Positions 25,565-52,508 of a stretch of 64,000 nt of DNA are shown piece after piece. Numbering within the stretch: the stretch's first letter is position 1; each line of letters starts with the position of its first letter. The position numbers and the translations under genes are program-made. The notes beneath the pieces were generated by a model. It had not been told where the DNA came from. It did not search any database and worked only from the letters and a program-made list of their open reading frames with translations. This stretch comes from Heptranchias perlo (Eukaryota), in the NCBI RefSeq assembly GCF_035084215.1, contig NW_027139264.1, positions 124,001-188,000 of the forward strand. The letters run 5' to 3'.

Positions 25565-26702
25565 CTACTCCTGCGTCTGGTGACGTTTCAGGAGACGAGG
25601 TGAAGTCCTTCTCACACGCCCAGCATTTGGAGAGCTCCTCCCCTCAGAGGGCGCGCCGATCCCGCGAGAGGTCGGAGGGGTAACCGAGTGACCGGAGGCG
25701 GGTGGGGGAGGGGTCGAACCGGACCTCGCCGCACGGCGCCGGAACAGCTGCGACCGCCGGCTGAAGGCCCGCCGAGGCCACTCTGAGTGGATGCGCTCGT
25801 GGACCAGGAGGGCCGTCGAGCGGAGGAAGGCCTTCCCGCACATCGAGCACTTGTAGGCCTTGTCCCCGCTGTGCAGGCGCTGGTGGTTCAGGAAGCTGTA
25901 GGCGTGGGCGAAGGCCTGGTCGCACAGCGTGCACTTGTAGGGCCGCTCGCCGGTGTGGACGCGCCGGTGGACGGTGAGGCTGTACGGCCGGGAGAAGCTC
26001 TTCCCGCACACCGAGCACAGGTGCTGCTTCGGTGGGCAGGGGGAGGAAGAGGAGGAAGGTGAAGGGTCCCCGTTGGGACCAGGGGTCTTCGCCTGGGCCG
26101 GAGATCTGTCGGAGCTTTCCCCGGAGTGGCAGCACCTGTGCGTGGAGAAGGGTGACAGGTGGCTGTACATCTTGGCGCAAATGGGGCACTTGTAGATCTT
26201 CATGCCGGTGTGGACCCGCTGGTGCATCAGTAGCGAGGAGGAGCGGACGAAGCTCATGGGGCAGGCCAAGCAGCGGTAGGGCTTCTCCCTCATGTGGATG
26301 CGCTGGTGGACCAGCTGGTCGGAGGAGCGGGCAAAGGCCTTGTGGCACACCGGGCAGGCGAAGGGCTTCTCGCCAGTGTGGAGACGCTGGTGCTGGCGCA
26401 TGGCGTAGAGCCAGGCGAAGGCCTTGTGGCACACGGGGCAGGTGAAGGGCTTGTCACCGGAGTGTACCCGCTGGTGCTGGCGCAGGCCGGAGGGCTGGGC
26501 AAAGGCCTTGCCGCAGGTCGGGCACTGGAACTGCTTCTGCCCCAGGTGGATGTAGCGGTGGATCTTGAGGTTGGAGGGGCGGCTGAACATCTTCCCGCAG
26601 TCGGGACACTGCACCCTCTTGTCCCCCCGGGGGGCGCGCTCGCCCCCTGGCAGGTCGCAGGGCGGGGAAACAGCGGTTTGCGGATCCATTCTCCCTCCTG
26701 CC
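25565..26702 (-). CDS. C2H2 zinc-finger protein, main coding exon (9 fingers in clusters of 6 and 3)
   Basis: CxxC-x12-HxxxH repeats with HTGEKPF/HSGDKPF linkers; GC-rich codon usage; acceptor tcttgttcctcgtcgcaag at 26703; internal ATG at 26689; TAG at 25565-25567. Confidence 0.92.
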
Positions 26703-27154
26703 CTTGCGACGAGGAACAAGACTCCGCACTTTGGGGGGAGGCGAGGGTGGAAAATGAGCAACAGGAGACTCCGCACAAAGGACGAGGCAGCGAGGGCAGT
26801 GGATCTCAGGCAAAGCACGCTGCCCAAATCCTAGGCACGAAAGAGCCCCTCCTCCGGATGCATTTCCCTTGCTGAAGATCAGAGGAGGACGAGTTCAACA
26901 GGACAACTCAATTGCCAGGCAATGCCAATGCTCCACCCCCCACACTGGGTCCGGGCTAGTTGGACAAGGCAGGAGAACGTCTCTTCGTTGTCAACAGCTG
27001 TCCCTCTCCAAATCCAACCAATGCCGACACCTTGCACGGACTGTCTCGGAGAACGGGTGGCTTTTCCATCCCACCCCTCACCAAGGGGGCTCAGCTGGGT
27101 CCTTCGACTCCTCGAGTCTCCTCCAAAACTGAGAAACAAATGAAACAAATGAAC

Positions 27155-27629: not shown

Positions 27630-28990
27630 TGCCAAGGCAACTGTACACTATGGGATATTGATGTGTAAGTCACACCCCCGTGTACGGTGCCCGGGGAGAA
27701 CTCCCCTGCTCTTCTTCGAAATAGTGCCGTGGAATCTTTTACGTTCAACTGAGAGCGCAGACGGGGTCTCGAGTTAACGCCTCATTTGAAACACGGCACC
27801 TCCGACAGTGCAGCGCTCCCTCAGTACTGCCCCTCCGACAATGCAGCACTCCCTCAGTACTACCCCTCCGACAGTGCAGCGCTCCCTCAGTACTGCCCCT
27901 CCGACAATGCAGCACTCCCTCAGTACTGCCCCTCCGACAGTGCAGCACTCCCTCAGTCCTGCCCCTCCGACAGTGCAGTGCTCCCTCAGTACTGCCCCTC
28001 CGACAGTGCAGTGCTCCCTCAGTCCTGCCCCTCCGACAGTGCAGTGCTCCCTCAGTCCTGCCCCTCAGACAGTGCAGTGCTCCCTCAGTACTGCCCCTCC
28101 GACAGTGCAGTGCTCCCTCAGTCCTGCCCCTCCGACAGTGCAGTGCTCCCTCAGTACTGCCCCTCCGACAATGCAGCACTCCCTCAGTACTGCCCCTCCG
28201 ACAGTGCAGCACTCCCTCAGTCCTGCCCCTCCGACAGTGCAGTGCTCCCTCAGTACTGCCTCTCCGACAGTGCAGCGCTCCCTCAGTTCTGTCCCTCAGA
28301 CAGTGCAGCACTCCCTCAGTACTGCCCCTCAGACAATGCAGCGCTCCCTCAGTACTGTCCCCTCAGATAGTACAGCACTCCCTCAGTACTGTCCCTCCCA
28401 CAGTACAGCACTCCCTCAGTACTGCCCCTCTGACAGTGCAGCACTCCCTCAGTACTGTCCCTCCCACAGTACAGCACTCCCTCAGTACTGCCCCTCTGAC
28501 AGTGCAGCACTCCCTCAGTACTGCCCCTCTGACAGTGCAGCACTCCCTCAGTACTGCCCCTCTGACAGTGCAGCACTCCCTCAGTACTGCCCCTCTGACA
28601 GTGCAGCGCTCCCTCAGTACTGCCCCTCCCTCAGTACAGCGCTCCCTCAGTCCTGTCCCTCCCACAGTGCAGCGCTCCCTCAGTACTGTCCCTCAGATAG
28701 TACAGCAGTCCCTCAGTACTGCCCCTCCTACAGTGCAGTGCTCCCTCAGTACTGCCCCTCCCACAGCGCAGCGCTCCCTCAGTACTGCCCCTCCGACAGT
28801 ACAGCACTCCCTCAGTTCTGCCCCTCCCACAGCGCAGCGCTCCCTCAGTACTGCCCCTCCCACAGTACAGTGCTCGCTCAGTCCTGCACTGGAGTGTGAG
28901 CCAGGATTATCTGGTCAAGTGTCTGGAGTGGGAGTTGAACTGATAACCTCAGACTCAGGTGTGAGTGTGCTCCCCACAGAGAGACGGCTT
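27630..28990 (-). mobile_element. tRNA-headed SINE (DeuSINE/SacSINE-like) with internal 33-bp expansion
   Basis: Degenerate tRNA-like head with B-box (gttcaactcc) at about 28925-28990 on minus; SINE body resumes at 27630-27796. Confidence 0.7.
27797..28880. repeat. 33-bp minisatellite (cctccgacagtgcagcactccctcagtactgcc)n, about 33 units
   Basis: 11-codon periodicity. Confidence 0.95.
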
Positions 28991-29254: not shown

Positions 29255-32200
29255 CTCTCACTCTCACATACACACTCACTCCCCCCTCTCCCTCCCTCCC
29301 TCCCACTCTCACACACACACTCACTCCCCCCTCTCCCTCCCTCCCTCCCACTCTCACACACACACTCACTCCCCCCTCTCCCTCCCTCCCTCCCACTCTC
29401 ACACACACACTCACTCCCCCCTCTCCCTCCCTCCCTCCCACTCTCACACACACACTCACTCCCCCCTCTCCCTCCCTCCCTCCCACTCTCACATACACAC
29501 TCACTCCCCCCTCTCCCTCCCTCCCTCCCACTCTCACATACACACTCACTCCCCCCTCTCCCTCCCTCCCTCCCACTCTCACATACACACTCACTCCCCC
29601 CTCTCCCTCCCTCCCTCCCACTCTCACATACACACTCACTCCCCCCTCTCCCTCCCTCCCTCCCTCCCACTCTCACATACACACTCACTCCCCCCTCTCC
29701 CTCCCTCCCTCCCACTCTCACATACACACTCACTCCCCCCTCTCCCTCCCTCCCTCCCTCCCTCCCACTCTCACATACACACTCACTCCCCCCTCTCCCT
29801 CCCTCCCTCCCACTCTCTCATACACACTCACTCCCCCCTCTCCCTCCCTCCCTCCCACTCTCACATACACACTCACTCCCCCCTCTCCCTCCCTCCCTCC
29901 CACTCTCACACACACTCACTCCCCCCTCTCCCTCCCTCCCTCCCACTCTCACACACACTCACTCCCCCCTCTCCCTTCCTCCCTCCCACTCTCACACACA
30001 CACTCACTCCCCCCTCTCCCTCCCTCCCTCCCACTCTCACACACACACTCACTCCCCCCTCTCCCTCCCTCCCTCCCACTCTCACATACACACTCACTCC
30101 CCCCTCTCCCTCCCTCCCTCCCACTCTCACATACACACTCACTCCCCCCTCTCCCTCCCTCCCTCCCACTCTCACATACACACTCACTCCCCCCTCTCCC
30201 TCCCTCCCTCCCACTCTCACATACACACTCACTCCCCCCTCTCCCTCCCTCCCTCCCACTCTCACATACACACTCACTCCCCCCTCTCCCTCCCTCCCTC
30301 CCACTCTCACACACACACTCACTCCCCCCTCTCCCTCCCTCCCTCCCACTCTCACACACACACTCACTCCCCCCTCTCCCTCGCTCCCTCCCACTCTCAC
30401 ACACTCACTCCCCCCTCTCCCTCCCTCCCTCCCACTCTCACACACAAACTCACTCCCCCCTCTCCCTCCCTCCCTCCCACTCTCTCACACACACTCACTC
30501 CCCCCTCTCCCTCCCTCCCTCCCTCCCACTCTCACATACACACTCACTCCCCCCTCTCCCTCCCTCCCTCCCACTCTCACATACACACTCACTCCCCCCT
30601 CTCCCTCCCTCCCTCCCTCCCACTCTCACATACACACTCACTCCCCCCTCTCCCTCCCTCCCTCCCACTCTCACACACACTCACTCCCCCCTCTCCCTCC
30701 CTCCCTCCCACTCTCTCACACACACTCACTCCCCCCTCTCCCTCCCTCCCTCCCTCCCACTCTCACATACACACTCACTCCCCCCTCTCCCTCCCTCCCT
30801 CCCACTCTCACACACACACTCACTCCCCCCTCTCCCTCCCTCCCTCCCACTCTCACACACACACTCACTCCCCCCTCTCCCTCCCTCCCTCCCACTCTCA
30901 CACACACACTCACTCCCCCCTCTCCCTCCCTCCCTCTCACTCTCTCATACACACTCACTCCCCCCTCTCCCTCCCTCCCTCCCACTCTCACATACACACT
31001 CACTCCCCCCTCTCCCTCCCTCCCTCCCACTCTCACATACACACTCACTCCCCCCTCTCCCTCCCTCCCTCCCACTCTCTCATACACACTCACTCCCCCC
31101 TCTCCCTCCCTCCCTCCCACTCTCTCATACACACTCACTCCCCCCTCTCCCTCCCTCCCTCCCACTCTCTCATACACACTCACTCCCCCTCTCCCTCCCT
31201 CCCTCCCACTCTCTCATACACACTCACTCCCCCCTCTCCCTCCCTCCCTCCCACTCTCACATACACACTCACTCCCCCCTCTCCCTCCCTCCCTCCCACT
31301 CTCACACACACTCACTCCCCCCTCTCCCTCCCTCCCTCCCACTCTCACACACACTCACTCCCCCCTCTCCCTCCCTCCCTCCCACTCTCACATACACACT
31401 CACTCCCCCCTCTCCCTCCCTCCCTCCCACTCTCACATACACACTCACTCCCCCCTCTCCCTCCCTCCCTCCCACTCTCACACACACACTCACTCCCCCC
31501 TCTCCCTCCCTCCCTCCCACTCTCATACACACTCACTCCCCCCTCTCCCTCCCTCCCTCCCACTCTCACATACACACTCACTCCCCCCTCTCCCTCCCTC
31601 CCTCCCACTCTCACATACACACTCACTCCCCCCTCTCCCTCCCTCCCTCTCACTCTCACACACACTCACTCCCCCCTCTCCCTCCCTCCCTCCCACTCTC
31701 ACATACACACTCACTCCCCCCTCTCCCTCCCTCCCTCCCACTCTCACATACACACTCACTCCCCCCTCTCCCTCCCTCCCTCCCACTCTCACACACACAC
31801 TCACTCCCCCCTCTCCCTCCCTCCCTCCCACTCTCACACACACTCACTCCCCCCTCTCCCTCCCTCCCTCCCACTCTCTCATACACACTCACTCCCCCCT
31901 CTCCCTCCCTCCCTCCCACTCTCACATACACACTCACTCCCCCCTCTCCCTCCCTCCCTCCCACTCTCACATAAACACTCACTCCCCCCTCTCCCTCCCT
32001 CCCTCCTACTCTCACACACACACTCACTCCCCCCTCTCCCTCCCACTCTCACACTCTCACATACACACTCACTCCCCCCTCTCCCTCCCTCCCTCCCACT
32101 CTCTCATACACACTCACTCCCCCCTCTCCCTCCCTCCCTCCCACTCTCTCATACACACTCACTCCCCCCTCTCCCTCCCTCCCTCCCACTCTCACATACA

Positions 32201-35200
32201 CACTCACTCCCCCCTCTCCCTCCCTCCCTCCCACTCTCACATACACACTCACTCCCCCCTCTCCCTCCCTCCCTCCCACTCTCAAATACACACTCACTCC
32301 CCCCTCTCCCTCCCTCCCTCCCACTCTCACACACACACTCACTCCCCCCTCTCCCTCCCTCCCTCCCACTCTCACATACACACTCACTCCCCCCTCTCCC
32401 TCCCTCCCTCCCACTCTCACATACACACTCACTCCCCCCTCTCCCTCCCTCCCTCCCACTCTCACATACACACTCACTCCCTCCTCTCCCTCCCTCCCTC
32501 CCACTCTCTCATACACACTCACTCCCCCCTCTCCCTCCCTCCCTCCCACTCTCACATACACACTCACTCCCCCCTCTCCCTCCCTCCCTCCCACTCTCAC
32601 ACACACACTCACTCCCCCCTCTCCCTCCCTCCCTCCCACTCTCTCATACACACTCACTCCCCCCTCTCCCTCCCTCCCTCCCACTCTCACACACACACTC
32701 ACTCCCCCCTCTCCCTCCCTCCCTCCCACTCTCACACACACACTCACTCCCCCCTCTCCCTCCCTCCCTCCCACTCTCACACACACACTCACTCCCCCCT
32801 CTCCCTCCCTCCCTCCCACTCTCTCACACACTCACTCCCTCCTCTCCCTCCCTCCCTCCCACTCTCTCATACACACTCACTCCCCCCTCTCCCTCCCTCC
32901 CTCCCACTCTCACATAAACACTCACTCCCCCCTCTCCCTCCCTCCCTCCCACTCTCACATACACACTCACTCCCCCCTCTCCCTCCCTCCCTCCCACTCT
33001 CACATACACACTCACTCCCCCCTCTCCCTCCCTCCCTCCCACTCTCTCATACACACTCACTCCCCCCTCTCCCTCCCTCCCTCCCACTCTCACATACACA
33101 CTCACTCCCCCCTCTCCCTCCCTCCCACTCTCACATACACACTCAGTCCCCCCTCTCCCTCCCTCCCTCCCACTCTCACATACACACTCACTCCCCCCTC
33201 TCCCTCCCTCCCTCCCACTCTCACATACACACTCACTCCCCCCTCTCCCTCCCTCCCTCCCACTCTCACACACACACTCACTCCCCCCTCTCCCTCCCTC
33301 CCTCCCACTCTCACACACACACTCACTCCCCCCTCTCCCTCCCTCCCTCCCACTCTCTCACACACACTCACTCCCCCCTCTCCCTCCCTCCCTCCCACCC
33401 TCACACACACACTCACTCCCCCCTCTCCCTCCCTCCCTCCCACTCTCACACACACACTCACTCCCCCCTCTCCCTCCCTCCCTCCCACCCTCACACACAC
33501 ACTCACTCCCCCCTCTCCCTCCCTTCCTCCCACTCTCACATACACACTCACTCCCCCCTCTCCCTCCCTCCCTCCCACTCTCACACACACTCACTCCCCC
33601 CTCTCCCTCCCTCCCTCCCACTCTCACACACACAATCACTCCCCCCTCTCCCTCCCTCCCTCCCACTCTCACACACACACTCACTCCCCCCTCTCCCTCC
33701 CTCCCTCCCACTCTCACATACACACTCACTCCCCCCTCTCCCTCCCTCCCTCCCACTCTCACATACACACTCACTCCCCCCTCTCCCTCCCTCCCTCCCA
33801 CTCTCACATACACACTCACTCCCCCCTCTCCCTCCCTCCCTCCCACTCTCACAAACACACTCACTCCCCCCACTCCCTCCCTCCCTCCCACTCTCACAAA
33901 CACACTCACTCCCCCCTCTCCCTCCCTCCCTCCCACTCTCACATACACACTCACTCCCCCCTCTCCCTCCCTCCCTCCCACTCTCACACACACACTCACT
34001 CCCCCCTCTCCCTCCCTCCCTCCCACTCTCACACACACTCACTCCCCCCTCTCCCTCCCTCCCTCCCACTCTCACATACACACTCACTCCCCCCTCTCCC
34101 TCCCTCCCTCCCACTCTCACATACACACTCACTCCCCCCTCTCCCTCCCTCCCTCCCACCCTCACACACACACTCACTCCCCCCTCTCCCTCCCTTCCTC
34201 CCACTCTCACATACACACTCACTCCCCCCTCTCCCTCCCTCCCTCCCACTCTCACACACACTCACTCCCCCCTCTCCCTCCCTCCCTCCCACTCTCACAC
34301 ACACAATCACTCCCGCCTCTCCCTCCCTCCCTCCCACTCTCACACACACACTCACTCCCCCCTCTCCCTCCCTCCCTCCCACTCTCACACACACACTCAC
34401 TCCCCCCTCTCCCTCCCTCCCTCCCACTCTCACATACACACTCACTCCCCCCTCTCCCTCCCTCCCTCCCACTCTCACAGACACACTCACTCCCCCCTCT
34501 CCCTCCCTCCCTCCCACCCTCACACACACACTCACTCCCCCCTCTCCCTCCCTCCCTCCCACTCTCTCATACACACTCACTCCCCCCTCTCCCTCCCTCC
34601 CTCCCACTCTCACACACACACTCACTCCCCCCTCTCCCTCCCTCCCTCCCACTCTCACATACACACTCACTCCCCCCTCTCCCTCCCTCCCTCCCACTCT
34701 CACACACACACTCACTCCCCCCTCTCCCTCCCTCCCTCTCACTCTCACATAAACACTCACTCCCCCCTCTCCCTCCCTCCCTCCCACTCTCACACACACA
34801 CTCACTCCACCCTCTCCCTCCCTCCCTCCCTCCCACTCTCACATACACACTCACTCCCCCCTCTCCCTCCCTCCCTCCCACTCTCACACACACACTCACT
34901 CCCCCCTCTCCCTCCCTCCCTCCCACTCTCACACACACACTCACTCCCCCCTCTCCCTCCCTCCCTCCCACTCTCACATACACACTCACTCCCCCCTCTC
35001 CCTCCCTCCCTCCCACTCTCACATACACACTCACTCCCCCCTCTCCCTCCCTCCCTCCCACTCTCACATAAACACTCACTCCCCCCTCTCCCTCCCTCCC
35101 TCCCACTCTCACATACACACTCACTCCCCCCTCTCCCTCCCTCCCTCCCACTCTCACATACACACTCACTCCCCCCTCTCCCTCCCTCCCTCCCACTCTC

Positions 35201-38200
35201 TCATACACACTCACTCCCCCCTCTCCCTCCCTCCCTCCCACTCTCACATACACACTCACTCCCCCCTCTCCCTCCCTCCCTCCCACTCTCTCATACACAC
35301 TCACTCCCCCCTCTCCCTCCCTCCCTCCCACTCTCACATACACACTCACTCCCCCCTCTCCCTCCCTCCCTCCCTCCCACTCTCACATACACACTCACTC
35401 CCCCCTCTCCCTCCCTCCCTCCCACTCTCACATACACACTCACTCCCCCCTCTCCCTCCCTCCCTCCCACTCTCACACACACACTCACTCCCCCCTCTCC
35501 CTCCCTCCCTCCCACTCTCACACACACACTCACTCCCCCCTCTCCCTCCCTCCCTCCCACTCTCACAGACACACTCACTCCCCCCTCTCCCTCCCTCCCT
35601 CCCACTCTCACATACACACTCACTCCCCCCTCTCCCTCCCTCCCTCCCACTCTCACATACACACTCACTCCCCCCTCTCCCTCCCTCCCTCCCACTCTCA
35701 CACACACACTCACTCCCCCCTCTCCCTCCCTCCCTCCCTCCCACTCTCACATACACACTCACTCCCCCCTCTCCCTCCCTCCCTCCCACTCTCTCATACA
35801 CACTCACTCCCCCCTCTCCCTCCCTCCCTCCCACTCTCACACACACACTCACTCCCCCCTCTCCCTCCCTCCCTCCCACTCTCACATACACACTCACTCC
35901 CCCCTCTCCCTCCCTCCCTCCCACTCTCACACACACACTCACTCCCCCCTCTCCCTCCCTCCCTCCCACTCTCACATACACACTCACTCCCCCCTCTCCC
36001 TCCCTCCCTCCCACTCTCACATACACACTCACTCCCCCCTCTCCCTCCCTCCCTCCCACTCTCACACACACACTCACTCCCCCCTCTCCCTCCCTCCCTC
36101 CCACTCTCACATACACACTCACTCCCCCTCTCCCTCCCTCCCTCCCACTCTCACATACACACTCACTCCCCCCTCTCCCTCCCTCCCTCCCACTCTCACA
36201 TACACACTCACTCCCCCCTCTCCCTCCCTCCCTCTCACTCTCACATAAACACTCACTCCCCCCTCTCCCTCCCTCCCTCCCACTCTCACAGACACACTCA
36301 CTCCCCCCTCTCCCTCCCTCCCTCCCAATCTCACACACACTCACTCCCCCCTCTCCCTCCCTCCCTCCCACTCTCACATACACACTCACTCCCCCCTCTC
36401 CCTCCCTCCCACCCACTCTCACATACACACTCACTCCCCCCTCTCCCTCCCTCCCTCCCACTCTCTCATACACACTCACTCCCCCCTCTCCCTCCCTCCC
36501 TCCCACTCTCACATACACACTCACTCCCCCCTCTCCCTCCCTCCCTCCCTCCCTCCCACTCTCACATACACACTCACTCCCCCCTCTCCCTCCCTCCCTC
36601 CCACTCTCACATACACACTCACTCCCCCCTCTCCCTCCCTCCCTCCCACTCTCTCATACACACTCACTCCCCCCTCTCCCTCCCTCCCTCCCACTCTCAC
36701 ATACACACTCACTCCCCCCTCTCCCTCCCTCCCTCCCACTCTCACATACACACTCACTCCCCCCTCTCCCTCCCTCCCTCCCACTCTCACACACACACTC
36801 ACTCCCCCCTCTCCCTCCCTCCCTCCCACTCTCACACACACACTCCCCCCTCTCCCTCCCTCCCTCGCACTCTCACATACACACTCACTCCCCCCTCTCC
36901 CTCCCTCCCTCCCACTCTCACATACACACACACTCCCCCCTCTCCCTCCCTCCCTCCCACTCTCATACACACACTCACTCCCCCCTCTCCCTCCCTCCCT
37001 CCCACTCTCTCATACACACTCACTCCCCCCTCTCCCTCGCTCCCTCCCACTCTCACATACACACTCACTCCCCCCTCTCCCTCCCTCCCTCCCACTCTCA
37101 CACACACACTCACTCCCCCCTCTCCCTCCCTCCCTCCCACTCTCTCATACACACTCACTCCCCCCTCTCCCTCCCTCCCTCCCACTCTCACACACACACT
37201 CACTCCCCCCTCTCCCTCCCTCCCTCCCACTCTCACATACACACTCACTCCCCCCTCTCCCTCCCTCCCTCCCACTCTCACATACACACTCACTCCCCCC
37301 TCTCCCTCCCTCCCTCCCACTCTCATACACACTCACTCCCCCCTCTCCCTCCCTCCCTCCCACTCTCACATACAGACTCACTCCCCCCTCTCCCTCCCTC
37401 TCTCCCACTCTCACATACACACTCACTCCCCCCTCTCCCTCCCTCCCTCCCACTCTCACATACACACTCACTCCCCCCTCTCCCTCCCTCCCTCCCACTC
37501 TCATACACACTCACTCCCCCCTCTCCCTCCCTCCCTCCCACTCTCAATTAAACACTCACTCCCCCCTCTCCCTCCCTCCCTCCCACTCTCATACACTCAC
37601 TCCCCCCTCTCCCTCCCTCCCTCTCACTCTCACATACACACTCACTCCCCCCTCTCCCTCCCTCCCTCTCACTCTCACATACACACTCACTCCCCCCTCT
37701 CCCTCCCTCCCTCCCACTCTCATACACTCACTCCCCCCTCTCCCTCCCTCCCTCTCACTCTCACATACACACTCACTCCCCCCTCTCCCTCCCTCCCTCC
37801 CACTCTCATACACACTCACTCCCCCCTCTCCCTCCCTCCCTCTCACTCTCACATACACACTCACTCCCCCCTCTCCCTCCCTCCCTCTCACTCTCACATA
37901 CACACTCACTCCCCCCTCTCCCTCCCTCCCTCCCACTCTCACATACACACTCACTCCCCCTCTCCCTCCCTCCCTCCCACTCTCACATACACACTCACTC
38001 CCCCCTCTCCCTCCCTCCCTCCCACTCTCACATACACACTCACTCCCCCCTCTCCCTCCCTCCCTCCCACTCTCACATACACACTCACTCCCCCCTCTCC
38101 CTCCCTCCCTCCCACTCTCCCTCCCACTCTCACACACACTCACTCCCCCCTCTCCCTCCCTCCCTCCCACTCTCACATACACACTCACTCCCCCCTCTCC

Positions 38201-40010
38201 CTCCCTCCCTCCCACTCTCACACACACACTCACTCCCCCCTCTCCCTCCCTCCCTCCCACTCTCACATACACACTCACTCCCCCCTCTCCCTCCCTCCCT
38301 CCCACTCTCTCATACACACTCACTCCCCCCTCTCCCTCCCTCCCTCCCTCCCTCCCACTCTCACACACACACTCACTCCCCCCTCTCCCTCCCTCCCTCC
38401 CACTCTCAATTAAACACTCACTCCCCCCTCTCCCTCCCTCCCTCCCACTCTCACACACACACTCACTCCCCCCTCTCCCTCCCTCCCTCCCACTCTCACA
38501 TACACACTCACTCCCCCCTCTCCCTCCCTCCCTCCCACTCTCACATACACACTCACTCCCCCCTCTCCCTCCCTCCCTCCCACTCTCATACACACTCACT
38601 CCCCCCTCTCCCTCCCTCCCTCCCACTCTCACATACACACTCACTCCCCCCTCTCCCTCCCTCCCTCCCACTCTCATACACACTCACTCCCCCCTCTCCC
38701 TCCCTCCCTCCCACTCTCACATACACACTCACTCCCCCCTCTCCCTCCCTCCCTCCCTCCCACTCTCACATAAACACTCACTCCCCCCTCTCCCTCCCTC
38801 CCTCCCACTCTCTCATACACACTCACTCCCCCCTCTCCCTCCCTCCCTCCCTCCCACTCTCACACACACACTCACTCCCCCCTCTCCCTCCCTCCCTCCC
38901 ACTCTCACACACACTCACTCCCCCCTCTCCCTCCCTCCCTCCCACTCTCACACACACACTCACTCCCCCCTCTCCCTCCCTCCCTCCCACTCTCACACAC
39001 ACACTCACTCCCCCCTCTCCCTCCCTCCCTCCCACTCTCACATACACACTCACTCCCCCCTCTCCCTCCCTCCCTCCCACTCTCATACACACTCACTCCC
39101 CCCTCTCCCTCCCTCCCTCCCACTCTCACATAAACACTCACTCCCCCCTCTCCCTCCCTCCCTCCCACTCTCACATAAACACTCACTCCCCCCTCTCCCT
39201 CCCTCCCTCCCACTCTCACATACACACTCACTCCCCCCTCTCCCTCCCTCCCTCCCACTCTCACATACACACTCACTCCCCCCTCTCACTCCCTCCCTCC
39301 CACTCTCACATACACACTCACTCCCCCCTCTCCCTCCCTCCCTCCCACTCTCACATACACACTCACTCCCCCCTCTCCCTCCCTCCCTCCCACTCTCACA
39401 TACACACTCACTCCCCCCTCTCCCTCCCTCCCTCCCACTCTCACACACACACTCACTCCCCCCTCTCCCTCCCTCCCTCCCACTCTCACACACACTCACT
39501 CCCCCCTCTCCCTCCCTCCCTCCCACTCTCACACACACACTCACTCCCCCCTCTCCCTCCCTCCCTCCCACTCTCACACACACACTCACTCCCCCCTCTC
39601 CCTCCCTCCCTCCCACTCTCACATACACACTCACTCCCCCCTCTCCCTCCCTCCCTCCCACTCTCACATACACACTCACTCCCCCCTCTCCCTCCCTCCC
39701 TCCCACTCTCACATACACACTCACTCCCCCCTCTCCCTCCCTCCCTCCCACTCTCACATACACACTCACTCCCCCCTCTCCCTCCCTCCCTCCCACTCTC
39801 ACACACACTCACTCCCCCCTCTCCCTCCCTCCCTCCCACTCTCACATACACACTCACTCCCCCCTCTCCCTCCCTCCCTCCCACTCTCTCATACACACTC
39901 ACTCCCCCCTCTCCCTCCCTCCCTCCCACTCTCACAGACACACTCACTCCCCCCTCTCCCTCCCTCCCTCCCACTCTCACACACACACTCACTCCCCCCT
40001 CTCTCTCCCT
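29255..40010. repeat. 45-bp C/T-rich minisatellite (ctcactcccccctctccctccctccctcccactctcacatacaca)n, about 240 units
   Basis: Direct periodicity with 2-bp and 4-bp slippage variants; almost no G on the plus strand. Confidence 0.98.
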
Positions 40011-40249
40011 CCCTCCCTCCCGCTCTCTCCCCCTCCCCCCGCTCACACACTCACCGTCAGTCTCTCACACACACAATCTCACACTCGCTCAATCTCACAC
40101 TCACATCCTCTGTCACGATCTCACACTGACTCACACACACAGTCGCACACTCACTCGCACACACTCACTCACTCTCTCACACTCACTCACTCACTCTCTC
40201 ACACTCAGTCAGTTTCAGAACCTCTCCCTCTGACCCAACATCTCTCCCT

Positions 40250-43200
40250 CCCTCACCTGTCCTCCTCTCTCTCCTCCTCACCTTTCCTCCTCTCTCTCCC
40301 CCTCACCTGTCCTCCTCTCTCTCTCCCCCTCACCTGTCCTCCTCCTCTCTCTCCTCACCTGTCCTCCTCTCTCTCTCCTCACCTGTCCTCCTCTCTCTCC
40401 CCCTCACCTGTCCTCCTCTCTCTCCTCCTCACCTGTCCTCCTCTCTCTCCTCCTCTCTCTCCCCCTCACCTGTCCTCCTCTCTCTCTCCCTCACCTGTCC
40501 TCCTCTCTCTCTCCCCCTCACCTGTCCTCCTCTCTCTCTCCCCCTCACCTGTCCTCCTCTCTCTCCCCCTCACCTGTCCTCCTCTCTCTCCCCCTCACCT
40601 GTCCTCCTCTCTCTCCCCCTCACCTGTCCTCCTCTCTCTCCCCCTCACCTGTCCTCCTCTCTCTCCCCCTCACCTGTCCTCCTCTCTCTCTCTCCCCCTC
40701 ACCTGTCCTCCTCTCTCTCCCACTCACCTGTCCTCCTCTCTCTCCCCCTCACCTGTCCTCCTCTCTCTCTCCCTCACCTGTCCTCCTCTCTCTCTCCCCC
40801 TCACCTGTCCTCATCTCTCTCTCCCCCTCACCTGTCCTCCTCTCTCTCCCCCTCACCTGTCCTCCTCTCTCTCCCCCTCACCTGTCCTCCTCTCTCTCCC
40901 CCTCACCTGTCCTCCTCCCTCTCCCCCTCACCTGTCCTCCTCTCTCTCCCCCTCACCTGTCCTCCTCTCTCTCTCCCTCACCTGTCCTCCTCTCTCTCCC
41001 CCTCACCTGTCCTCCTCTCTCTCTCCCTCACCTGTCCTCCTCTCTCTCCCCCTCACCTGTCCTCCTCTCTCTCTCCTTCACCTGTCCTCCTCTCTCTCCC
41101 CCTCACCTGTCCTCCTCTCTCTCCCCCTCACCTGTCCTCCTCTCTCTCTCCTCACCTGTCCTCCTCTCTCTCCTCCTCACCTGTCCTCCTCTCTCTCCCC
41201 CTCACCTGTCCTCCTCTCTCTCTCTCTCTCTCTCCCCCTCACCTGTCCTCCTCTCTCTCTCTCTCCCCCTCACCTGTCCTCCTCTCTCTCTCTCTCCCCC
41301 TCACCTGTCCTCCTCTCTCTCTCCTCACCTGTCCTCCTCTCTCTCCTCCTCACCTGTCCTCCTCTCTCTCCCCCTCACCTGTCCTCCTCTCTCTCCCCCT
41401 CACCTGTCCTCCTCTCTCTCCCCCTCACCTGTCCTCCTCTCTCCCCCTCACCTGTCCTCCTCTCTCCCCCTCACCTGTCCTCCTCTCTCTCTCCCTCTCA
41501 CCTGTCCTCCTCTCTCTCCCTCTCACCTGTCCTCCTCTCTCTCCCCCTCACCTGTCCTCCTCTCTCTCTCCCTCTCACCTGTCCTCCTCTCTCTCCCCCT
41601 CACCTGTCCTCCTCTCTCTCCCCCTCACCTGTCCTCCTCTCTCTCCCCCTCACCTGTCCTCCTCTCTCTCCCCCTCACCTGTCCTCCTCTCTCTCCCCCT
41701 CACCTGTCCTCCTCTCTCTCCCCCTCACCTGTCCTCCTCTCTCTCCCCCTCACCTGTCCTCCTCTCTCTCTCCCCCTCACCTGTCCTCCTCTCTCTCCCC
41801 CTCACCTGTCCTCCTCTCTCTCTCCCCCTCACCTGTCCTCCTCTCTCTCTCCCCCTCACCTGTCCTCCTCTCTCTCTCCCCCTCACCTGTCCTCCTCTCT
41901 CTCCCCCTCACCTGTCCTCCTCTCTCTCCCCCTCACCTGTCCTCCTCTCTCTCCCCCTCACCTGTCCTCCTCTCTCTCTCCCCCTCACCTGTCCTCCTCT
42001 CTCTCCCCCTCACCTGTCCTCCTCTCTCTCCCCCTCACCTGTCCTCCTCTCTCTCCCCCTCACCTGTCCTCCTCTCTCTCCCCCTCACCTGTCCTCCTCT
42101 CTCTCCCCCTCACCTGTCCTCCTCTCTCTCTCCCTCACCTGTCCTCCTCTCTCTCTCCCCCTCACCTGTCCTCCTCTCTCTCTCCCCCTCACCTGTCCTC
42201 CTCTCTCTCCCCCTCACCTGTCCTCCTCTCTCTCTCCCCCTCACCTGTCCTCCTCTCTCTCCCCCTCACCTGTCCTCCTCTCTCTCTCCTCACCTGTCCT
42301 CCTCTCTCTCCCCCTCACCTGTCCTCCTCTCTCTCCCCCTCACCTGTCCTCCTCTCTCTCCCCCTCACCTGTCCTCCTCTCTCTCTCCCTCACCTGTCCT
42401 CCTCTCTCTCTCCCCCTCACCTGTCCTCCTCTCTCTCTCCCCCTCACCTGTCCTCCTCTCTCTCCCCCTCACCTGTCCTCCTCTCTCTCTCCCCCTCACC
42501 TGTCCTCCTCTCTCTCCCCCTCACCTGTCCTCCTCTCTCTCTCCCCCTCACCTGTCCTCCTCTCTCTCTCTCTCTCCCCCTCACCTGTCCTCCTCTCTCC
42601 CCCTCACCTGTCCTCCTCTCTCTCCCCCTCACCTGTCCTCCTCGCTCTCTCCCCCTCACCTGTCCTCCTCCCTCTCCCCCTCACCTGTCCTCCTCTCTCT
42701 CTCCCCCTCACCTGTCCTCCTCTCTCTCCCCCTCACCTGTCCTCCTCTCTCTCTCCCCCTCACCTGTCCTCCTCTCTCCCCCTCACCTGTCCTCCTCTCT
42801 CTCCCCCTCACCTGTCCTCCTCGCTCTCTCCCCCTCACCTGTCCTCCTCTCTCTCCCCCTCACCTGTCCTCCTCTCTCTCTCTCCCCCTCACCTGTCCTC
42901 CTCTCTCTCTCTCCTCACCTGTCCTCCTCTCTCTCTCCCCCTCACCTGTCCTCCTCTCTCTCTCTCCCCCTCACCTGTCCTCCTCTCTCTCTCTCCTCAC
43001 CTGTCCTCCTCTCTCTCTCCCCCTCACCTGTCCTCCTCTCTCTCCCCCTCACCTGTCCTCCTCTCTCTCCCCCTCACCTGTCCTCCTCTCTCCTCCTCAC
43101 CTGTCCTCCTCTCTCTCTCCCTCACCTGTCCTCCTCTCTCTCCCCCTCACCTGTCCTCCTCTCTCTCCCCCTCACCTGTCCTCCTCTCTCTCTCTCTCCT
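40250..43200. repeat. About 28-32-bp polypyrimidine minisatellite (cccctcacctgtcctcctctctct..)n, roughly 100 units
   Basis: Invariant core ctcacctgtcctcc with variable (ct)n; the minus strand reads gacag|GTGAGg in each unit. Confidence 0.97.
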
Positions 43201-43324
43201 CTCTCTCTTTCTCCTTCTCTCTCTCTCCGTGACGGAGCCTCTGACCGTCTCCCCAGAGTGCACCGGGGCCGCGGGCGGACCGCTTTCCGAGCCGCGCGGC
43301 CTTGTGGGTAATGAACACCGCCAT
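43176..43324 (-). CDS. Candidate first coding exon of the zinc-finger gene (MAVFITHKAARLGKRS...EDR)
   Basis: Unique CpG-rich island between two arrays; gcaATGGCG start context; donor CAG|GTGAG at 43176 is phase 2, matching the phase-2 acceptor at 26702. Confidence 0.45.
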
Positions 43325-43327
43325 TGC

Positions 43328-46300
43328 TGCTCCCAGACTGACCAAAACACCAGACAGACAGGGGGGAATCCCACCATCAGTGACCGCTCCCAGACTGACC
43401 AAAACACCAGACAGACAGGGGGGAATCTCACCATCAGTCACCGCTCCCAGACTGACCAAAACACCAGACAGACAGGGGGGAATCTCACCATCAGTCACCG
43501 CTCCCAGACTGACCAAAACACCAGACAGACAGGGGGGAATCTCACCATCAGTCACCGCTCCCAGACTGACCAAAACACCAGACAGACAGAGGGGAATCTC
43601 ACCATCAATCACCGCTCCCAGACTGACCAAAAAACCAGACAGACAGGGGGGAATCTCACCATCAATCACCGCTTCCAGACTGACCAAAACACCAGACAGA
43701 CAGGGGGGAATCTCACCATCAGTGACCGCTCCCAGACTGACCAAAACACCAGACAGACAGGGGGGAATCTCACCATCAGTGACCGCTCCCAGACTGACCA
43801 AAACACCAGACAGACAGGGGGGAATCTCACCATCAGTGACCGCTCCCAGACTGACCAAAACACCAGACAGACAGAGGGGAATCTCACCATCAGTGACCGC
43901 TCCCAGACTGACCAAAACACCAGACAGACAGAGGGGAATCTCACCATCAGTCACCGCTCCCAGACTGACCAAATCACCAGACAGACAGGGGGGAATCTCA
44001 CCATCAGTGACCGCTCCCAGACTGACCAAAACACCAGACAGACAGAGGGGAATCTCACCATCAGTCACCGCTCCCAGACTGACCAAAACACCAGACAGAC
44101 AGGGGGGAATCTCACCATCAGTCACCGCTCCCAGACTGACCAAAACGACCAGACAGACAGGGGGGAATCTCACCATCAGTCACCGCTCCCAGACTGACCA
44201 AAACACCAGACAGACAGGGGGGAATCTCACCATCAATCACCGCTCCCAGACTGACCAAAACACCAGACAGACAGGGGGGAATCTCACCATCAGTCACCGC
44301 TCCCAGACTGACCAAAACACCAGACAGACAGGGGGGAATCTCACCATCAATCACCGCTCCCAGACTGACCAAAACACCAGACAGACAGGGGGGAATCTCA
44401 CCATCAATCACCGCTCCCAGACTGACTGAAACACCAGACAGACAGGGGGGAATCTCACCATCAGTCACCGCTCCCAGACTGACCAAAACACCAGACAGAC
44501 AGGGGGGAATCTCACCATCAGTCACCGCTCCCAGACTGACCAAAACACCAGACAGACAGAGGGGAATCTCACCATCAGTCACCGCTCCCAGACTGACCAA
44601 AACACCAGACAGACAGAGGGGAATCTCACCATCAGTCACCGCTCCCAGACTGACCAAAACACCAGACAGACAGAGGGGAATCTCACCATCAGTCACCGCT
44701 CCCAGACTGACCAAAACACCAGACAGACAGAGGGGAATCTCACCATCAGTGACCGCTCCCAGACTGACCAAAACACCACACAGACAGAGGGGGAATCTCA
44801 CCATCAGTGACCGCTCCCAGACTGACCAAAACACCAGACAGACAGAGGGGAATCTCACCATCAATCACCGCTCCCAGACTGACCAAAACACCAGACAGAC
44901 AGAGGGGAATCCCACCATCAGTCACCGCTCCCAGACTGACCAAAACAACAGACAGACAGAGGGGAATCTCACCATCAATCACCGCTCCCAGACTGACCAA
45001 AACACCAGACAGACAGAGGGGAATCCCACCATCAGTGACCGCTCCCAGACTGACCAAAACACCAGACAGACAGGGGGGAATCTCACCATCAGTCACCGCT
45101 CCCAGACTGACCAAAACACCAGACAGACAGGGGGGAATCCCACGGTCAGTGACCGCTCCCAGACTGACCAAAACACCAGACAGACAGAGGGGAATCTCAC
45201 CATCAGTCACCGCTCCCAGACTGACCAAAACACCAGACAGACAGAGGGGAATCTCACCATCAATCACCGCTCCCAGACTGACCAAAACACCAGACAGACA
45301 GAGGGGAATCTCACCATCAATCACTGCTCCCAGACTGACCAAAACACCAGACAGACAGGGGCGAATCTCACCATCAGTCACCGCTCCCAGACTGACCAAA
45401 ACACCAGACAGACAGAGGGGAATCTCACCATCAATCACCGCTCCCAGACTGACCAAAACAGCAGACAGACAGGGGGGAATCTCACCATCAGTCACTGTTC
45501 CCAGACTGACCAAAACACCAGACAGACAGAGGGGAATCTCACCATCAATCACCGCTCCCAGACTGACCAAAACACCAGACAGACAGGGGGGAATCTCACC
45601 ATCAGTCACCGCTCCCAGACTGACCAAAACACCAGACAGACAGAGGGGAATCTCACCATCAATCACCGCTCCCAGACTGACCAAAACACCAGACAGACAG
45701 GGGGGAATCTCACCATCAATCACCGCTCCCAGACTGACCAAAACACCAGACAGACAGAGGGGAATCCCACCATCAATCACCGCTCCCAGACTGACCAAAA
45801 CACCAGACAGACAGAGGGGAATCTCACCATCAATCACCGCTCCCAGACTGACCAAAACACCAGACAGACAGGGGGGAATCTCACCATCAGTCACCGCTCC
45901 CAGACTGACCAAAACACCAGACAGACAGGGGGGAATCTCACCATCAGTCACCGCTCCCAGACTGACCAAAACACCAGACAGACAGGGGGGAATCTCACCA
46001 TCAGTGACCGCTCCCAGACTGACCAAAACACCAGACAGACAGAGGGGAATCTCACCATCAGTGACCGCTCCCAGACTGACCAAAACACCAGACAGACAGG
46101 GGGGAATCTCACCATCAGTCACCGCTCCCAGACTGACCAAAACACCAGACAGACAGGGGGGAATCTCACCATCAGTCACCGCTCCCAGACTGACCAAAAC
46201 ACCAGACAGACAGGGGGGAATCTCACCATCAGTCACCGCTCCCAGACTGACCAAAACACCAGACAGACAGGGGGGAATCTCACCATCAGTCACCGCTCCC

Positions 46301-48740
46301 AGACTGACCAAAACACCAGACAGACAGGGGGGAATCTCACCATCAGTCACCGCTCCCAGACTGACCAAAACACCAGACAGACAGGGGGGAATCTCACCAT
46401 CAATCACCGCTCCCAGACTGACCAAAACACCAGACAGACAGGGGGGAATCTCACCATCAATCACCGCTCCCAGACTGACTGAAACACCAGACAGACAGGG
46501 GGGAATCTCACCATCAGTCACCGCTCCCAGACTGACCAAAACACCAGACAGACAGGGGGGAATCTCACCATCAGTCACCGCTCCCAGACTGAACAAAACA
46601 CCAGACAGACAGAGGGGAATCTCACCATCAGTCACCGCTCCCAGACTGACCAAAACACCAGACAGACAGAGGGGAATCTCACCATCAGTCACCGCTCCCA
46701 GACTGACCAAAACACCAGACAGACAGAGGGGAATCTCACCATCAGTCACCGCTCCCAGACTGACCAAAACACCAGACAGACAGAGGGGAATCTCACCATC
46801 AGTGACCGCTCCCAGACTGACCAAAACACCAGACAGACAGAGGGGGAATCTCACCATCAGTGACCGCTCCCAGACTGACCAAAACACCAGACAGACAGAG
46901 GGGAATCTCACCATCAATCACCGCTCCCAGACTGACCAAAACACCAGACAGACAGAGGGGAATCCCACCATCAGTCACCGCTCCCAGACTGACCAAAACA
47001 CCAGACAGACAGAGGGGAATCTCACCATCAATCACCGCTCCCAGACTGACCAAAACACCAGACAGACAGAGGGGAATCCCACCATCAGTGACCGCTCCCA
47101 GACTGACCAAAACACCAGACAGACAGGGGGGAATCTCACCATCAGTCACCGCTCCCAGACTGACCAAAACACCAGACAGACAGGGGGGAATCCCACGGTC
47201 AGTGACCGCTCCCAGACTGACCAAAACACCAGACAGACAGAGGGGAATCTCACCATCAGTCACCGCTCCCAGACTGACCAAAACACCAGACAGACAGAGG
47301 GGAATCTCACCATCAATCACCGCTCCCAGACTGACCAAAACACCAGACAGACAGGGGCGAATCTCACCATCAGTCACCGCTCCCAGACTGACCAAAACAC
47401 CAGACAGACAGAGGGGAATCTCACCATCAATCACCGCTCCCAGACTGACCAAAACACCAGACAGACAGGGGGGAATCTCACCATCAGTCACTGCTCCCAG
47501 ACTGACCAAAACACCAGACAGACAGGGGGGAATCTCACCATCAGTCACCGCTCCCAGACTGACCAAAACACCAGACAGACAGAGGGGAATCTCACCATCA
47601 ATCACCGCTCCCAGACTGACCAAAACACCAGACAGACAGGGGGGAATCTCACCATCAGTCACCGCTCCCAGACTGACCAAAACACCAGACAGACAGAGGG
47701 GAATCTCACCATCAATCACCGCTCCCAGACTGACCAAAACACCAGACAGACAGGGGGGAATCTCACCATCAATCACCGCTCCCAGACTGACCAAAACACC
47801 AGACAGACAGAGGGGAATCCCACCATCAATCACCGCTCCCAGACTGACCAAAACACCAGACAGACAGAGGGGAATCTCACCATCAATCACCGCTCCCAGA
47901 CTGACCAAAACACCAGACAGACAGGGGGGAATCTCACCATCAGTCACCGCTCCCAGACTGACCAAAACACCAGACAGACAGGGGGGAATCTCACCATCAG
48001 TCAACGCTCCCAGACTGACCAAAACACCAGACAGACAGAGGGGAATCTCACCATCAATCACCGCTCCCAGACTGACCAAAACACCAGACAGACAGGGGGG
48101 AATCTCACCATCAGTCACCGCTCCCAGACTGACCAAAACACCAGACAGACAGAGGGGAATCTCACCATCAGTGACCGCTCCCAGACTGACAAAAACACCA
48201 GACAGACAGGGGGGAATCTCACCATCAGTCACCGCTCCCAGACTGACCAAAACACCAGACAGACAGAGGGGAATCTCACCATCAGTGACCGCTCCCAGAC
48301 TGACCAAAACACCAGACAGACAGAGGGGAATCTCACCATCAGTGACCGCTCCCAGACTGACCAAAACACCAGACAGACAGGGGGGAATCTCAACATCAAT
48401 CACCGCTCCCAGACTGACCAAAACACCAGACAGACAGGGGGGAATCTCACCATCAATCACCGCTCCCAGACTGACCAAAACACCAGACAGACAGGGGGGA
48501 ATCTCACCATCAGTCACTGCTCCCAGACTGACCAAAACACCAGACAGACAGAGGGGAATCTCACCATCAGTCACCGCTCCCAGACTGACCAAAACACCAG
48601 ACAGACAGGGGGGAATCTCACCATCAATCACCGCTCCCAGACTGACCAAAACACCAGACAGACAGAGGGGAATCCCACCATCAGTGACCGCTCCCAGACT
48701 GACCAAAACACCAGACAGACAGGGGGGAATCCCACCATTG
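43328..48740. repeat. 57-bp minisatellite (gctcccagactgaccaaaacaccagacagacaggggggaatctcaccatcagtcacc)n, about 95 units, with 2053-bp higher-order duplication
   Basis: 19-codon periodicity; rare variants recur at +2053. Confidence 0.98.
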
Positions 48741-49289
48741 ATCAGCCGGGATGCGCTGTGAAGCTGGATCGCTTTCATGCCTCGATCTTCCGTGAATATC
48801 CAAGTGGAATTGGATGAGAGAGAAAAGAGAATCCAGTTCCCGATCAAGAGACATTATTATCCGGGAAGTGTCCAGTTCCCCCATCGATTCCCCGTTACAT
48901 TTGAGACTGATGGGCTTCCATGAGGAATTGTCACTTGGCCCAGGTTGTTCTTCAGCAGCTCGAATTCCATTCCACGCAGAGATTCTTTTTACAGAGAAAA
49001 CTGTAAAATACTTTTAGTTTCAGGAAAATCAACAAGTTCCCACAAAGTAAATGCGCGACCCACAGGGCTGATTGGAGAGGAATCAGTGGGTGATTGAAAC
49101 TCACAGCTCAGCAAGGAGTCTTTCCCCTTCTGAGTGTCAGAGAATTGTCCCCCAACAGCCCGTGACTTTCCATCTATTTCAATTAACGATCATAAAATCA
49201 TGGACTGGAATGTGTAATTTCCTAATGTGCCCCCTCTCCCCACACAACCTGCTTCCCCCCCAGTCCAGGGGCGCTGATCGCCGAGGGAC

Positions 49290-50790: not shown

Positions 50791-51818
50791 CGTCCCTGAT
50801 TCAGAATTAGTTTCCTACATAATTAGATGGAGAATACTGTTGGGAAAATAAAAATGGTCTCTTTCATCCATTAAAAAAACCCGGTGCCCGGACGCTGAGG
50901 TTCTGCACGAGACTGTAATACAAGACTTCTGGCTTGGCACTTGAATTTAAAAGCTCCTTCCTAGGCCCATGATCTGCTTGCCACTCCCTCCCTCTTCAGG
51001 CCTCCGTTCTGCTGCTGCTCCCTACCTCTACCCCAGGGCCCCATTCTTTACTGGTCTCTCCGTCTCTCACACTGCTCCTCATTTGATTTTTCCCGACTGC
51101 TCCCGCTTCTGTTTGCTCTCCTATGCTGTACGATCCTTGGCTGCCCCGCTGCCCCCATCTCTCTCCAGGCGGACACCCTCCCCAACCTCTCCCTCTCTCA
51201 AGTCCCTGCTTTCCTCACAAAATCTGGGCCCGAAATTCCTTTGGGGAGTGGGGTGGTGGCAGAGGCAATGTAATCGGGGCTGGATTCTGGAACTGGACCC
51301 GGCTGCTCCAGGTCTCTATCCCTTTTTTCCCAAAGTTGGGAAATTTCACCGAGAGTGTGAGGGGTCACCTCTTGTGTCCTTTCCACCCCCCCGTCCCCTC
51401 CACCCCCACTCCATGCGGACATCATTGGAAGAGATGGGACTGTAAACATGGCACCATCCATCAGAACTCCCTCAGTTCCGCTCCCCAGTGCCCCCCAACA
51501 CTAAGTACTCCTGTAGGGTACGTATCAGGACTAGATCCCCGTGGAAGTGACCAAAAGCACTTTACAGTGAAGGATTTTGGACTTTTAAATACCAGTTTTA
51601 AGGATTAATTACCTGCTAAAGGAGCTGAGTTTGGTTAAAAGTATTAATTCAACATCGGAACTGTTGAACTGACTGTTCAAGGCGGCATGCTGGACAGGTT
51701 GGCCACGTTGGAAAAGTGTTATTCGAACTGCCTGGAAGGCTAGAGATAAGGAGGCCTTGAAATATTGTGGGAGACCATCGTAAACACCAGGTGATGTTTT
51801 TGTAGTCTCAGTCCCCTC

Positions 51819-52507: not shown

Positions 52508-52508
52508 T

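What the first reader, a model, noticed from the sequence alone, without database searches (positions are those of the whole stretch)
40250..43200. About 100 tandem consensus 5' splice donors beginning at the donor of the candidate ZNF exon 1
Seen: every unit reads GAGGAGGACAG|GTGAGG on the ZNF sense (minus) strand, i.e. a purine-rich enhancer-like stretch plus a strong donor. The first copy (43176) closes the candidate exon in phase 2, and reading past it meets an in-frame TGA (43172-43174). Inference: the exon/intron boundary itself was amplified. Only the first donor gives the long protein; use of any later donor turns exon 1 into a terminated uORF ahead of the ATG at 26689. The array could act as a copy-number-tunable splicing/translation switch or as a U1 snRNP loading platform.
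Basis: partly seen in the sequence, partly recalled or inferred. Interest (0 to 1): 0.7.

Follow-up and report, generated by a model that had tools for sequence, protein, structure and literature searches.

The report
Minisatellite repeating a first-exon splice donor
A short DNA repeat has copied what is probably the end-of-exon splicing signal of a zinc-finger gene 114 times; such repeats are already known in several human genes, where the first copy does nearly all the work, so this is most likely ordinary.

Summary
The array is real: 114 tandem 23-37-nt units on the minus strand, each with AG|GTGA; 108 read CAG|GTGAGG. It starts at the edge of a 130-bp CpG-rich island with two ZNF143-like sites. 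It supplies the only strong donors within 25 kb upstream of an intact 374-aa C2H2 ORF. An amplified exon-1/intron-1 junction is therefore likely but unproven; there are no RNA data or orthologues.

The best-scoring acceptors give no long protein, only weaker ones fuse in frame. No homologue of the exon peptide was found. ATG 43324 may lie upstream of the transcription start.

Junction-reiterating minisatellites are a described class (F7, CBS, IFI6, LMNB2, PDGFA, ABCA7). There the first donor dominates. In ABCA7 (25-bp unit, 12-427 copies) second-donor use is about 2% and independent of array length. The locus is also full of other G-rich arrays (92% of the intron).

Verdict: new member of a known kind, probably near-neutral. 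Distinctive only in being promoter-proximal with about 110 strong donors.

The parts
40251..43186 (-). 25-bp G/A-rich minisatellite, 114 units, each repeating the exon-end/donor junction
   Evidence: unit variants
43174..43175 (-). GT of the first (most upstream) donor, the presumed authentic 5' splice site; last exon base 43176
   Evidence: strength; no other donor of 7/9 or better in non-array minus-strand DNA from 51611 to 26690; use inferred
43172..43174 (-). TGA in frame with ATG 43324; ends a 50-codon ORF if the first donor is read through
43200..43330 (.). Single-copy CpG-rich island (CpG o/e 0.97 against 0.46 background); candidate promoter / short first exon
   Evidence: (CpG, self-BLAST)
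43293..43310 (-). ZNF143/Staf-site-like 18-mer, 2 mismatches, core intact
   Evidence: consensus as printed in PMC5006282
43250..43267 (+). Second ZNF143/Staf-site-like 18-mer, 3 mismatches, core intact
43322..43324 (-).
   Evidence: TSS not determined
43329..48738 (-). 57-bp minisatellite (about 95 copies) directly upstream of the island; weak donor-like word in 83 copies, weak acceptor-like end; three +1 frameshift units; not coding-like
29255..40017 (-). 45-bp G-rich minisatellite (about 239 copies) filling most of the presumed intron; weaker donor-like word in 234 copies
27799..28887 (.). 33-bp minisatellite in the presumed intron
26871..26873 (-). Best-scoring acceptor within 200 nt of the ZNF ATG (AG at 26873-26872, first exon base 26871); alternatives 26702 (in frame) and 26728 (out of frame)
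   Evidence: (rough matrix from recalled frequencies)
26831..26863 (-). 10-codon uORF in the ZNF frame, ending at TAG 26833-26831, which blocks in-frame extension from acceptors further upstream
25565..26689 (-). Intact 374-aa ORF with nine C2H2 fingers, GC3 0.93 in the fingers; no close orthologue found
   Evidence: searches

Best explanation
The island at 43200-43330 is the promoter and short, most likely non-coding, first exon of the C2H2 gene whose ORF starts at 26689 (inferred). Its donor sat between two GA-rich tracts. Slippage or unequal exchange between them duplicated a 25-bp piece spanning the junction, and this expanded into a 114-copy minisatellite, one of several G-rich arrays that fill 92% of the 16.3-kb intron (structure shown; history inferred). 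On the nascent RNA the unstructured repeats can probably bind U1, but the first donor, occasionally the second or third, is used and the rest are silent pseudo-sites removed with the intron (inferred from F7, CBS, IFI6, LMNB2, PDGFA and ABCA7). The protein is the 374-aa ORF whichever early donor is used. The array is a tolerated by-product; at most it lengthens the 5' UTR by 25-50 nt in a minority of transcripts or modestly changes splicing efficiency.
For: Array anatomy and flanks. Donor in the top 0.5% of background GT sites. It is the only donor of 7/9 or better on the sense strand in 25 kb upstream of the ORF outside other arrays. Two of the 9 core-intact ZNF143-like sites in 37 kb of non-array DNA fall in the 130-bp island; 8 of 5000 shuffles gave one site as good and 0 of 5000 gave two (post hoc). 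ZNF143 sites mostly lie upstream of start sites (bioRxiv 2024.05.13.594008 passages), which would leave ATG 43324 outside the mRNA. The 374-aa protein is held letter for letter in the ESM Atlas (may be this genome's own record). Precedents: first donor only, or plus the next two (PMC1557585); ABCA7 second donor 2 +/- 1% and unaffected by length (PMC5954066). Donor positions are not better conserved than their flank: 4 variant types over 9 donor positions, 1 over 8 flank positions (counted). Array RNA is unfolded (MFE -0.4 kcal/mol per 200 nt).
Against: There is no transcript, junction or orthologue evidence at all. A donor this good arises in at least one of 10 arrays by chance with probability 0.19. 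Three neighbouring arrays also carry weaker donor-like words on the same strand. [quoted passage not shown] In F7 only perfect-consensus pseudo-sites competed, and these donors are stronger than F7's. A YY1-like word at 43324 could put the start site upstream of the ATG (bioRxiv 2023.06.27.546584 passage). All precedents are mammalian.
Confidence: 0.58

Rival explanations
1. Coincidence: the array is a GA-rich minisatellite grown from a simple repeat, the donor word is accidental, and the ZNF is transcribed from elsewhere (its own CpG-rich 5' region, or an exon further upstream such as a donor at 51612).
For: P=0.19 across the window's arrays. GTGAG words are common in the GA/GT repeats next door. 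The ZNF ORF region is itself CpG-rich. Eight donors of 7/9 or better lie upstream at 51612-63668. No orthologue or transcript support.
Against: The array begins exactly at the 3' edge of the only promoter-like island, on the sense strand, and points to the ORF. ZNF143-like pair. A good acceptor lies 182 nt before the ATG.
Confidence: 0.22
2. Many donors are really used. Downstream copies win by the proximity rule and give a ladder of G/A-rich 5' UTRs full of unused donor motifs. These transcripts are retained in the nucleus, degraded or poorly translated, so array length sets ZNF dose.
For: Proximal-site rule and several U1 per transcript in complex E (PMC3413131). Retained donor motifs inhibit export, shown for terminal exons and unspliced mRNA (PMC4380460 abstract). 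Donors are strong and accessible. ABCA7 array length does change skipping of the next exon.
Against: Every natural junction-spanning array reported uses only the first one to three sites. ABCA7 unit retention is length-independent. G-rich silencers between competing sites inhibit the intron-proximal one (PMC2095810 passages), and most units carry a G5 run. No sign of selection on the donors. Polymorphism is unknown.
Confidence: 0.1
3. One reading: ATG 43324 is translated. Donor 1 spliced to a phase-2 acceptor (most plausibly 26702) gives a 428-aa ZNF with an exon-1 N-terminus; later donors close a 50-codon uORF.
For: ATG in good context, phase 2, in-frame TGA. Acceptor 26702 is the second-best within 200 nt of the ATG (score 2.7; 190 of 5211 background AG score as well) and fuses in frame.
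Against: Better acceptors give no fusion. 26702 has another AG 17 nt upstream and no branch-like word of its own. The peptide has no Pfam family and no homologue. The public record starts at 26689. ZNF143-like sites lie inside the supposed coding exon.
Confidence: 0.07
4. Assembly artefact: the array is much shorter in the animal.
For: Low-complexity arrays are hard to assemble; raw reads were not available.
Against: Units vary in a patterned way (22 unit types among 113 intervals, clustered variants), and the flanks are single-copy. A wrong copy number would not remove the feature.
Confidence: 0.03

Closest known systems
ABCA7 intron-18 VNTR (PMC5954066; passages and section 21 read)
   Same: 25-bp unit that begins at the exon's donor GT; array of kilobases (12-427 units); a second donor one unit downstream would shift frame or expose a stop.
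   Different: ABCA7 is an internal coding exon in human with measured splicing. Here the exon is a presumed first exon, 108 of 114 units keep a near-consensus donor, and nothing is measured.
F7 IVS7 37-bp minisatellite (PMC1557585; abstract, passages and Discussion read)
   Same: First unit spans the exon-intron boundary, so identical donors follow the authentic one.
   Different: 5-9 copies of a weak donor on an internal exon, against 114 strong donors 25 nt apart next to a presumed promoter.
IFI6 (6-16), CBS IVS13, LMNB2 and PDGFA junction minisatellites (known only through the introduction of PMC1557585; originals not read)
   Same: Reiterated donor in 10-26 copies; the first site, or the first plus two, is used.
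   Different: Fewer copies, human genes, use demonstrated.
Splicing-associated tandem repeats in general (PMC10078293 and PMC2812944; passages)
   Same: Repeats near or across junctions can alter splicing or gene structure.
   Different: Those rest on population RNA data or paralogue comparison; neither is available here.

Membership tests
Junction-reiterating minisatellite (F7/CBS/IFI6/LMNB2/PDGFA/ABCA7 type) | Head-to-tail array of 10-100-bp units | tested here: met
   114 units of 23-37 nt
Junction-reiterating minisatellite (F7/CBS/IFI6/LMNB2/PDGFA/ABCA7 type) | Each unit repeats the same donor sequence on the gene's sense strand | tested here: met
   108 of 114 identical 9-mers on the ZNF strand
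Junction-reiterating minisatellite (F7/CBS/IFI6/LMNB2/PDGFA/ABCA7 type) | First unit spans an authentic, used exon-intron boundary | tested here: inconclusive
   Promoter-like island and sole strong donor, but no transcript or orthologue
Junction-reiterating minisatellite (F7/CBS/IFI6/LMNB2/PDGFA/ABCA7 type) | Downstream copies mostly silent; first one to three used | not testable with these tools
   No RNA data
VNTR / splicing-QTL repeat | Copy number varies among individuals and tracks splicing or expression | not testable with these tools
   One sequence only
uORF-based splice-translation switch | Upstream ATG inside the mRNA and in frame with the main ORF through the favoured acceptor | tested here: not met
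   None of the 4 best-scoring acceptors fuses in frame; 5 weaker ones of 14 do. The acceptor matrix is rough and the TSS unknown.
ZNF143/Staf-type promoter | 18-bp site with CCCR at positions 3-6 and C at 12, close to the published consensus | tested here: met
   Two sites, 2 and 3 mismatches; post hoc, mammalian consensus; binding not testable
C2H2 (Kruppel-type) zinc-finger gene | Intact ORF with tandem C2H2 fingers | tested here: met
   Nine fingers; PF00096 E 1e-43

The most novel reading that the evidence does not exclude
A promoter-proximal array of about 110 strong, unstructured donors works as a length-tunable rheostat. It loads many U1 snRNPs just after initiation and lets far-downstream donors compete, so allele length sets the mix of short productive 5' UTRs and long donor-laden ones. 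If transcription can also start above ATG 43324, donor 1 with the best acceptor makes a repressive 188-aa overlapping ORF, while donors 2-3 close it at 50 codons, within about 50 nt of the junction (NMD rule recalled).
Probability: 0.1. Interest if true: 0.6.

Novelty: new member of a known kind. Interest (0 to 1): 0.24.

Why it matters
As it most likely stands, this adds one probably non-mammalian, first-exon example to a class described in human genes since the 1990s, and shows how much repeat load a promoter-proximal intron tolerates. Its use is as a natural test case. 114 near-identical strong donors 25 nt apart beside a cap set first-site preference (F7 scanning model) against the proximity rule (PMC3413131), and one long-read experiment would decide between them. 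If array length tuned ZNF output, it would be a heritable splicing rheostat, but nothing here shows that.

Tried and rejected
Orthologue searches led nowhere. Whole ORF: the best 120 of 4814 hits were listed, with 29-45% identity, all generic zinc fingers. Finger 6-linker-finger 7 region: 58 hits of 148 candidates, at most 38% identity over the full region. C-terminal tail: 0 hits in 1.84 billion representatives. Exact look-up: not in that collection. Exon peptide in longer proteins: 0 of 4248. ZNF forms longer than 737 aa were not searched with the finger region. An Atlas feature search of the exon peptide gave no result.

Rfam: 0 matches at gathering score in the window. The island had no match in plasmids (irrelevant collection). 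GTDB was not scanned because it is prokaryotic; viral and metagenome contigs stayed unchecked.

Idea that the 57-bp array is a matching run of amplified acceptors, making 43337-43176 an internal exon: rejected as weak (score -0.1; 563 of 5211 background AG score as well), although the last unit has a longer AG-free zone. Idea that the 57-bp array is coding: rejected (three +1 units; 4 synonymous against 16 non-synonymous variant types in 91 units).

Codon test of the 'long protein': GC3 is 36/49 in exon 1 and 32/47 upstream of the ATG against 255/275 in the fingers, but the ORF's own tail is 50/73, so it does not discriminate. Telescripting need: only one AATAAA and one ATTAAA in the 16.3-kb intron. 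G-quadruplex: G4Hunter mean 1.28, but ViennaRNA gains only 1.5 kcal/mol with quadruplexes allowed; not pursued. The 3-mismatch ZNF143 scan of the whole window was swamped by arrays (305 matches) and was replaced by a core-intact scan outside arrays.

Literature: searches for a shark or elasmobranch precedent and for UPF3A/CUL4A splice VNTRs returned nothing relevant; one recalled preprint is not held. No supplements were read.

Full report
Observation. The minus strand from 43186 to 40251 is a tandem array of 114 units, each holding AG|GTGA. Units are 23-37 nt, 25 nt in 69 of 113 intervals, and differ mainly in the number of GA dinucleotides. The first GT is at 43175. ATG 43324 lies 149 nt upstream (phase 2), and read-through stops at TGA 43174-43172.

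Is it more than chance? The 114 copies are one event amplified, so the test is per unit. The donor matches the U1 consensus at 7.5 of 9 (my score; U1 motif recalled). 21 of 3992 non-array GT sites reach that, and 3 of 3992 pair as stably. Shuffling the unit gives such a donor in 0.3-0.5% of trials. Over the 10 arrays tested, the chance that at least one does is 0.19. Three neighbouring arrays carry weaker donor-like words on the same strand: 83 copies in the 57-bp array, 234 in the 45-bp array and 25 in the 18-bp array beyond the gene's 3' end. The array alone is therefore suggestive, not proof.

Context. The window is vertebrate-like DNA made of LINE fragments (reverse transcriptase, endonuclease and an esterase-type ORF1) and long minisatellites. 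It looks like a cartilaginous fish to me, from recall and not tested. One host gene is evident: an intact minus-strand ORF at 26689-25565, 374 aa with nine C2H2 fingers and GC3 of 255/275 in the fingers. No orthologue was found. The exact sequence is absent from one collection but held letter for letter in the ESM Atlas. So some record starts this protein at ATG 26689; it may derive from this genome and does not exclude a longer isoform.

The island. Between the 57-bp array and the donor array lie about 130 bp of single-copy, CpG-rich DNA (o/e 0.97 against 0.46). It holds two 18-mers close to the ZNF143/Staf consensus printed in PMC5006282 (passages; core defined in PMC3082894, passages): minus 43310 with 2 mismatches and plus 43250 with 3. 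These are 2 of 9 such sites in 37,088 non-array bases. In 5000 shuffles of the island, 8 gave one site as good and none gave two. I noticed the motif by eye first, and the consensus is mammalian. No donor scoring 7 or more occurs in non-array sense-strand DNA between 51611 and 26690; eight occur further upstream. The simplest gene model is thus a promoter and short first exon in the island, the donor at 43175, a 16.3-kb intron of which 14,955 bases are arrays, and one coding exon. ZNF143 sites mostly lie upstream of start sites (bioRxiv 2024.05.13.594008, passages), which would put ATG 43324 outside the mRNA. YY1 motifs lie just downstream of start sites (bioRxiv 2023.06.27.546584, passages), and the ATG sits in a YY1-like word (recalled), so a start above it is possible. 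The start site is not determined.

Origin. The 5' flank ends in a GA tract before the first donor, and the last unit runs into a short GA-rich tract before unique intron sequence. Misalignment between two such tracts would duplicate exactly the piece that spans the junction. The donor positions show no extra conservation among copies: four variant types over nine donor positions, one over eight flanking positions (counted).

The 'long protein' switch. With a rough acceptor matrix built from recalled frequencies, the four best AGs in 27800-26690 are 27448, 26871, 27128 and 27373. None fuses exon 1 in frame. Acceptor 26871 (32 of 5211 background AG score as well) is followed by a 10-codon uORF and an in-frame TAG at 26833. 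Spliced to donor 1 it gives a 188-aa ORF that overlaps the ZNF start out of frame. Acceptor 26728, with a 38-nt AG-free zone and a branch-like word, gives 195 aa out of frame. Five of 14 acceptors do fuse in frame; four score below zero, and 26702 (score 2.7; 190 of 5211) is the only credible one. The exon peptide has no Pfam family and no homologue among 4248 candidates. A codon-bias test did not discriminate. So the long isoform is possible but unlikely. If ATG 43324 is translated at all, the favoured acceptor would make donor 1 repressive and later donors permissive, the reverse of the proposal.

Which donor is used? Natural precedents are direct. PMC1557585 (abstract, passages, Discussion) describes minisatellites whose first unit spans an exon-intron boundary. 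F7, LMNB2 and PDGFA use only the first site; IFI6 and CBS use two more (those originals not read). In F7 constructs the most upstream functional site always won unless a pseudo-site was made perfect. ABCA7 has a 25-bp unit starting at the donor, with 12-427 copies; retention of one unit was 2 +/- 1% and unaffected by length, whereas skipping of the next exon rose with length (PMC5954066, passages and section 21). G-rich silencers between competing sites inhibit the intron-proximal one (PMC2095810, passages), and most units here carry a run of five G. Against this, duplicated strong sites shift to the intron-proximal copy beyond about 30 nt and fully at 45 nt, and several U1 can bind one transcript early (PMC3413131, abstract and passages). 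The array RNA is unfolded, so U1 occupancy is plausible. Retained donor motifs can block export (PMC4380460, abstract; shown for terminal exons and unspliced mRNA). A protective role is not obviously needed: the intron has one AATAAA and one ATTAAA.

Verdict. Shown: the array, its donor content, the promoter-like island, the ZNF ORF and the frame arithmetic. Inferred: that the first donor is real (about 0.75), and that it dominates with the array near-neutral (0.58 overall). Not supported: a copy-number-tuned long-protein/uORF switch (0.07). The feature works like, and probably belongs to, the known junction-reiterating minisatellites; membership awaits one spliced read. It differs in being promoter-proximal with about 110 strong donors, probably outside mammals; three searches for a shark precedent found none. 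Interest 0.24.

Noticed in passing
window 43329-48738, minus: The 57-bp array is open in one frame and continuous with ATG 43324, but broken by three +1 units (46897, 44844, 44159). The first two are the same variant 2053 bp apart, a higher-order duplication. Units carry a weak donor word and a weak acceptor, so the array could in principle splice itself out.
   Followed up: partly
window 48740-49330: Single-copy DNA above the 57-bp array has two CCAAT words (49075, 48813), an ETS-like word (48792) and a ZNF143-core-like word (49037). It may be the other half of a promoter split by the 57-bp expansion.
   Followed up: partly
window 21536-43192: The 49-, 18-, 33-, 45- and 25-bp arrays are all G-rich on the minus (ZNF sense) strand, with G4Hunter means 0.83-1.88; possible R-loop or quadruplex-driven expansion under transcription.
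   Followed up: partly
window 23903-24671, minus: 18-bp array with 25 AAG|GTGAGG donor-like words between the ZNF stop and the first AATAAA (23722); it may lie in the 3' UTR, where such motifs could hinder export or polyadenylation.
   Followed up: no
window 25568-25786, minus: The ZNF's 73-aa tail begins like a decayed tenth finger, has lower GC3 (50/73) and no homologue; a 45-bp CpG-rich array (24988-25533) starts just after the stop.
   Followed up: partly
window 16234-20143, minus: Near full-length LINE: 90-bp CpG-rich tandem repeat at the 5' end, a 317-aa esterase-domain ORF1 and an 804-aa endonuclease/reverse-transcriptase ORF.
   Followed up: partly
window 13590-15865: Two near-identical ORFs in inverted orientation (13590-14816 plus, 14771-15865 minus), with a third copy at 5490-6188; they look like Penelope-type elements (recalled; Pfam found no family in the one tested).
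   Followed up: no
window 54187-59212: Local direct duplication with about 3.3-kb spacing and 94-97% identity.
   Followed up: no
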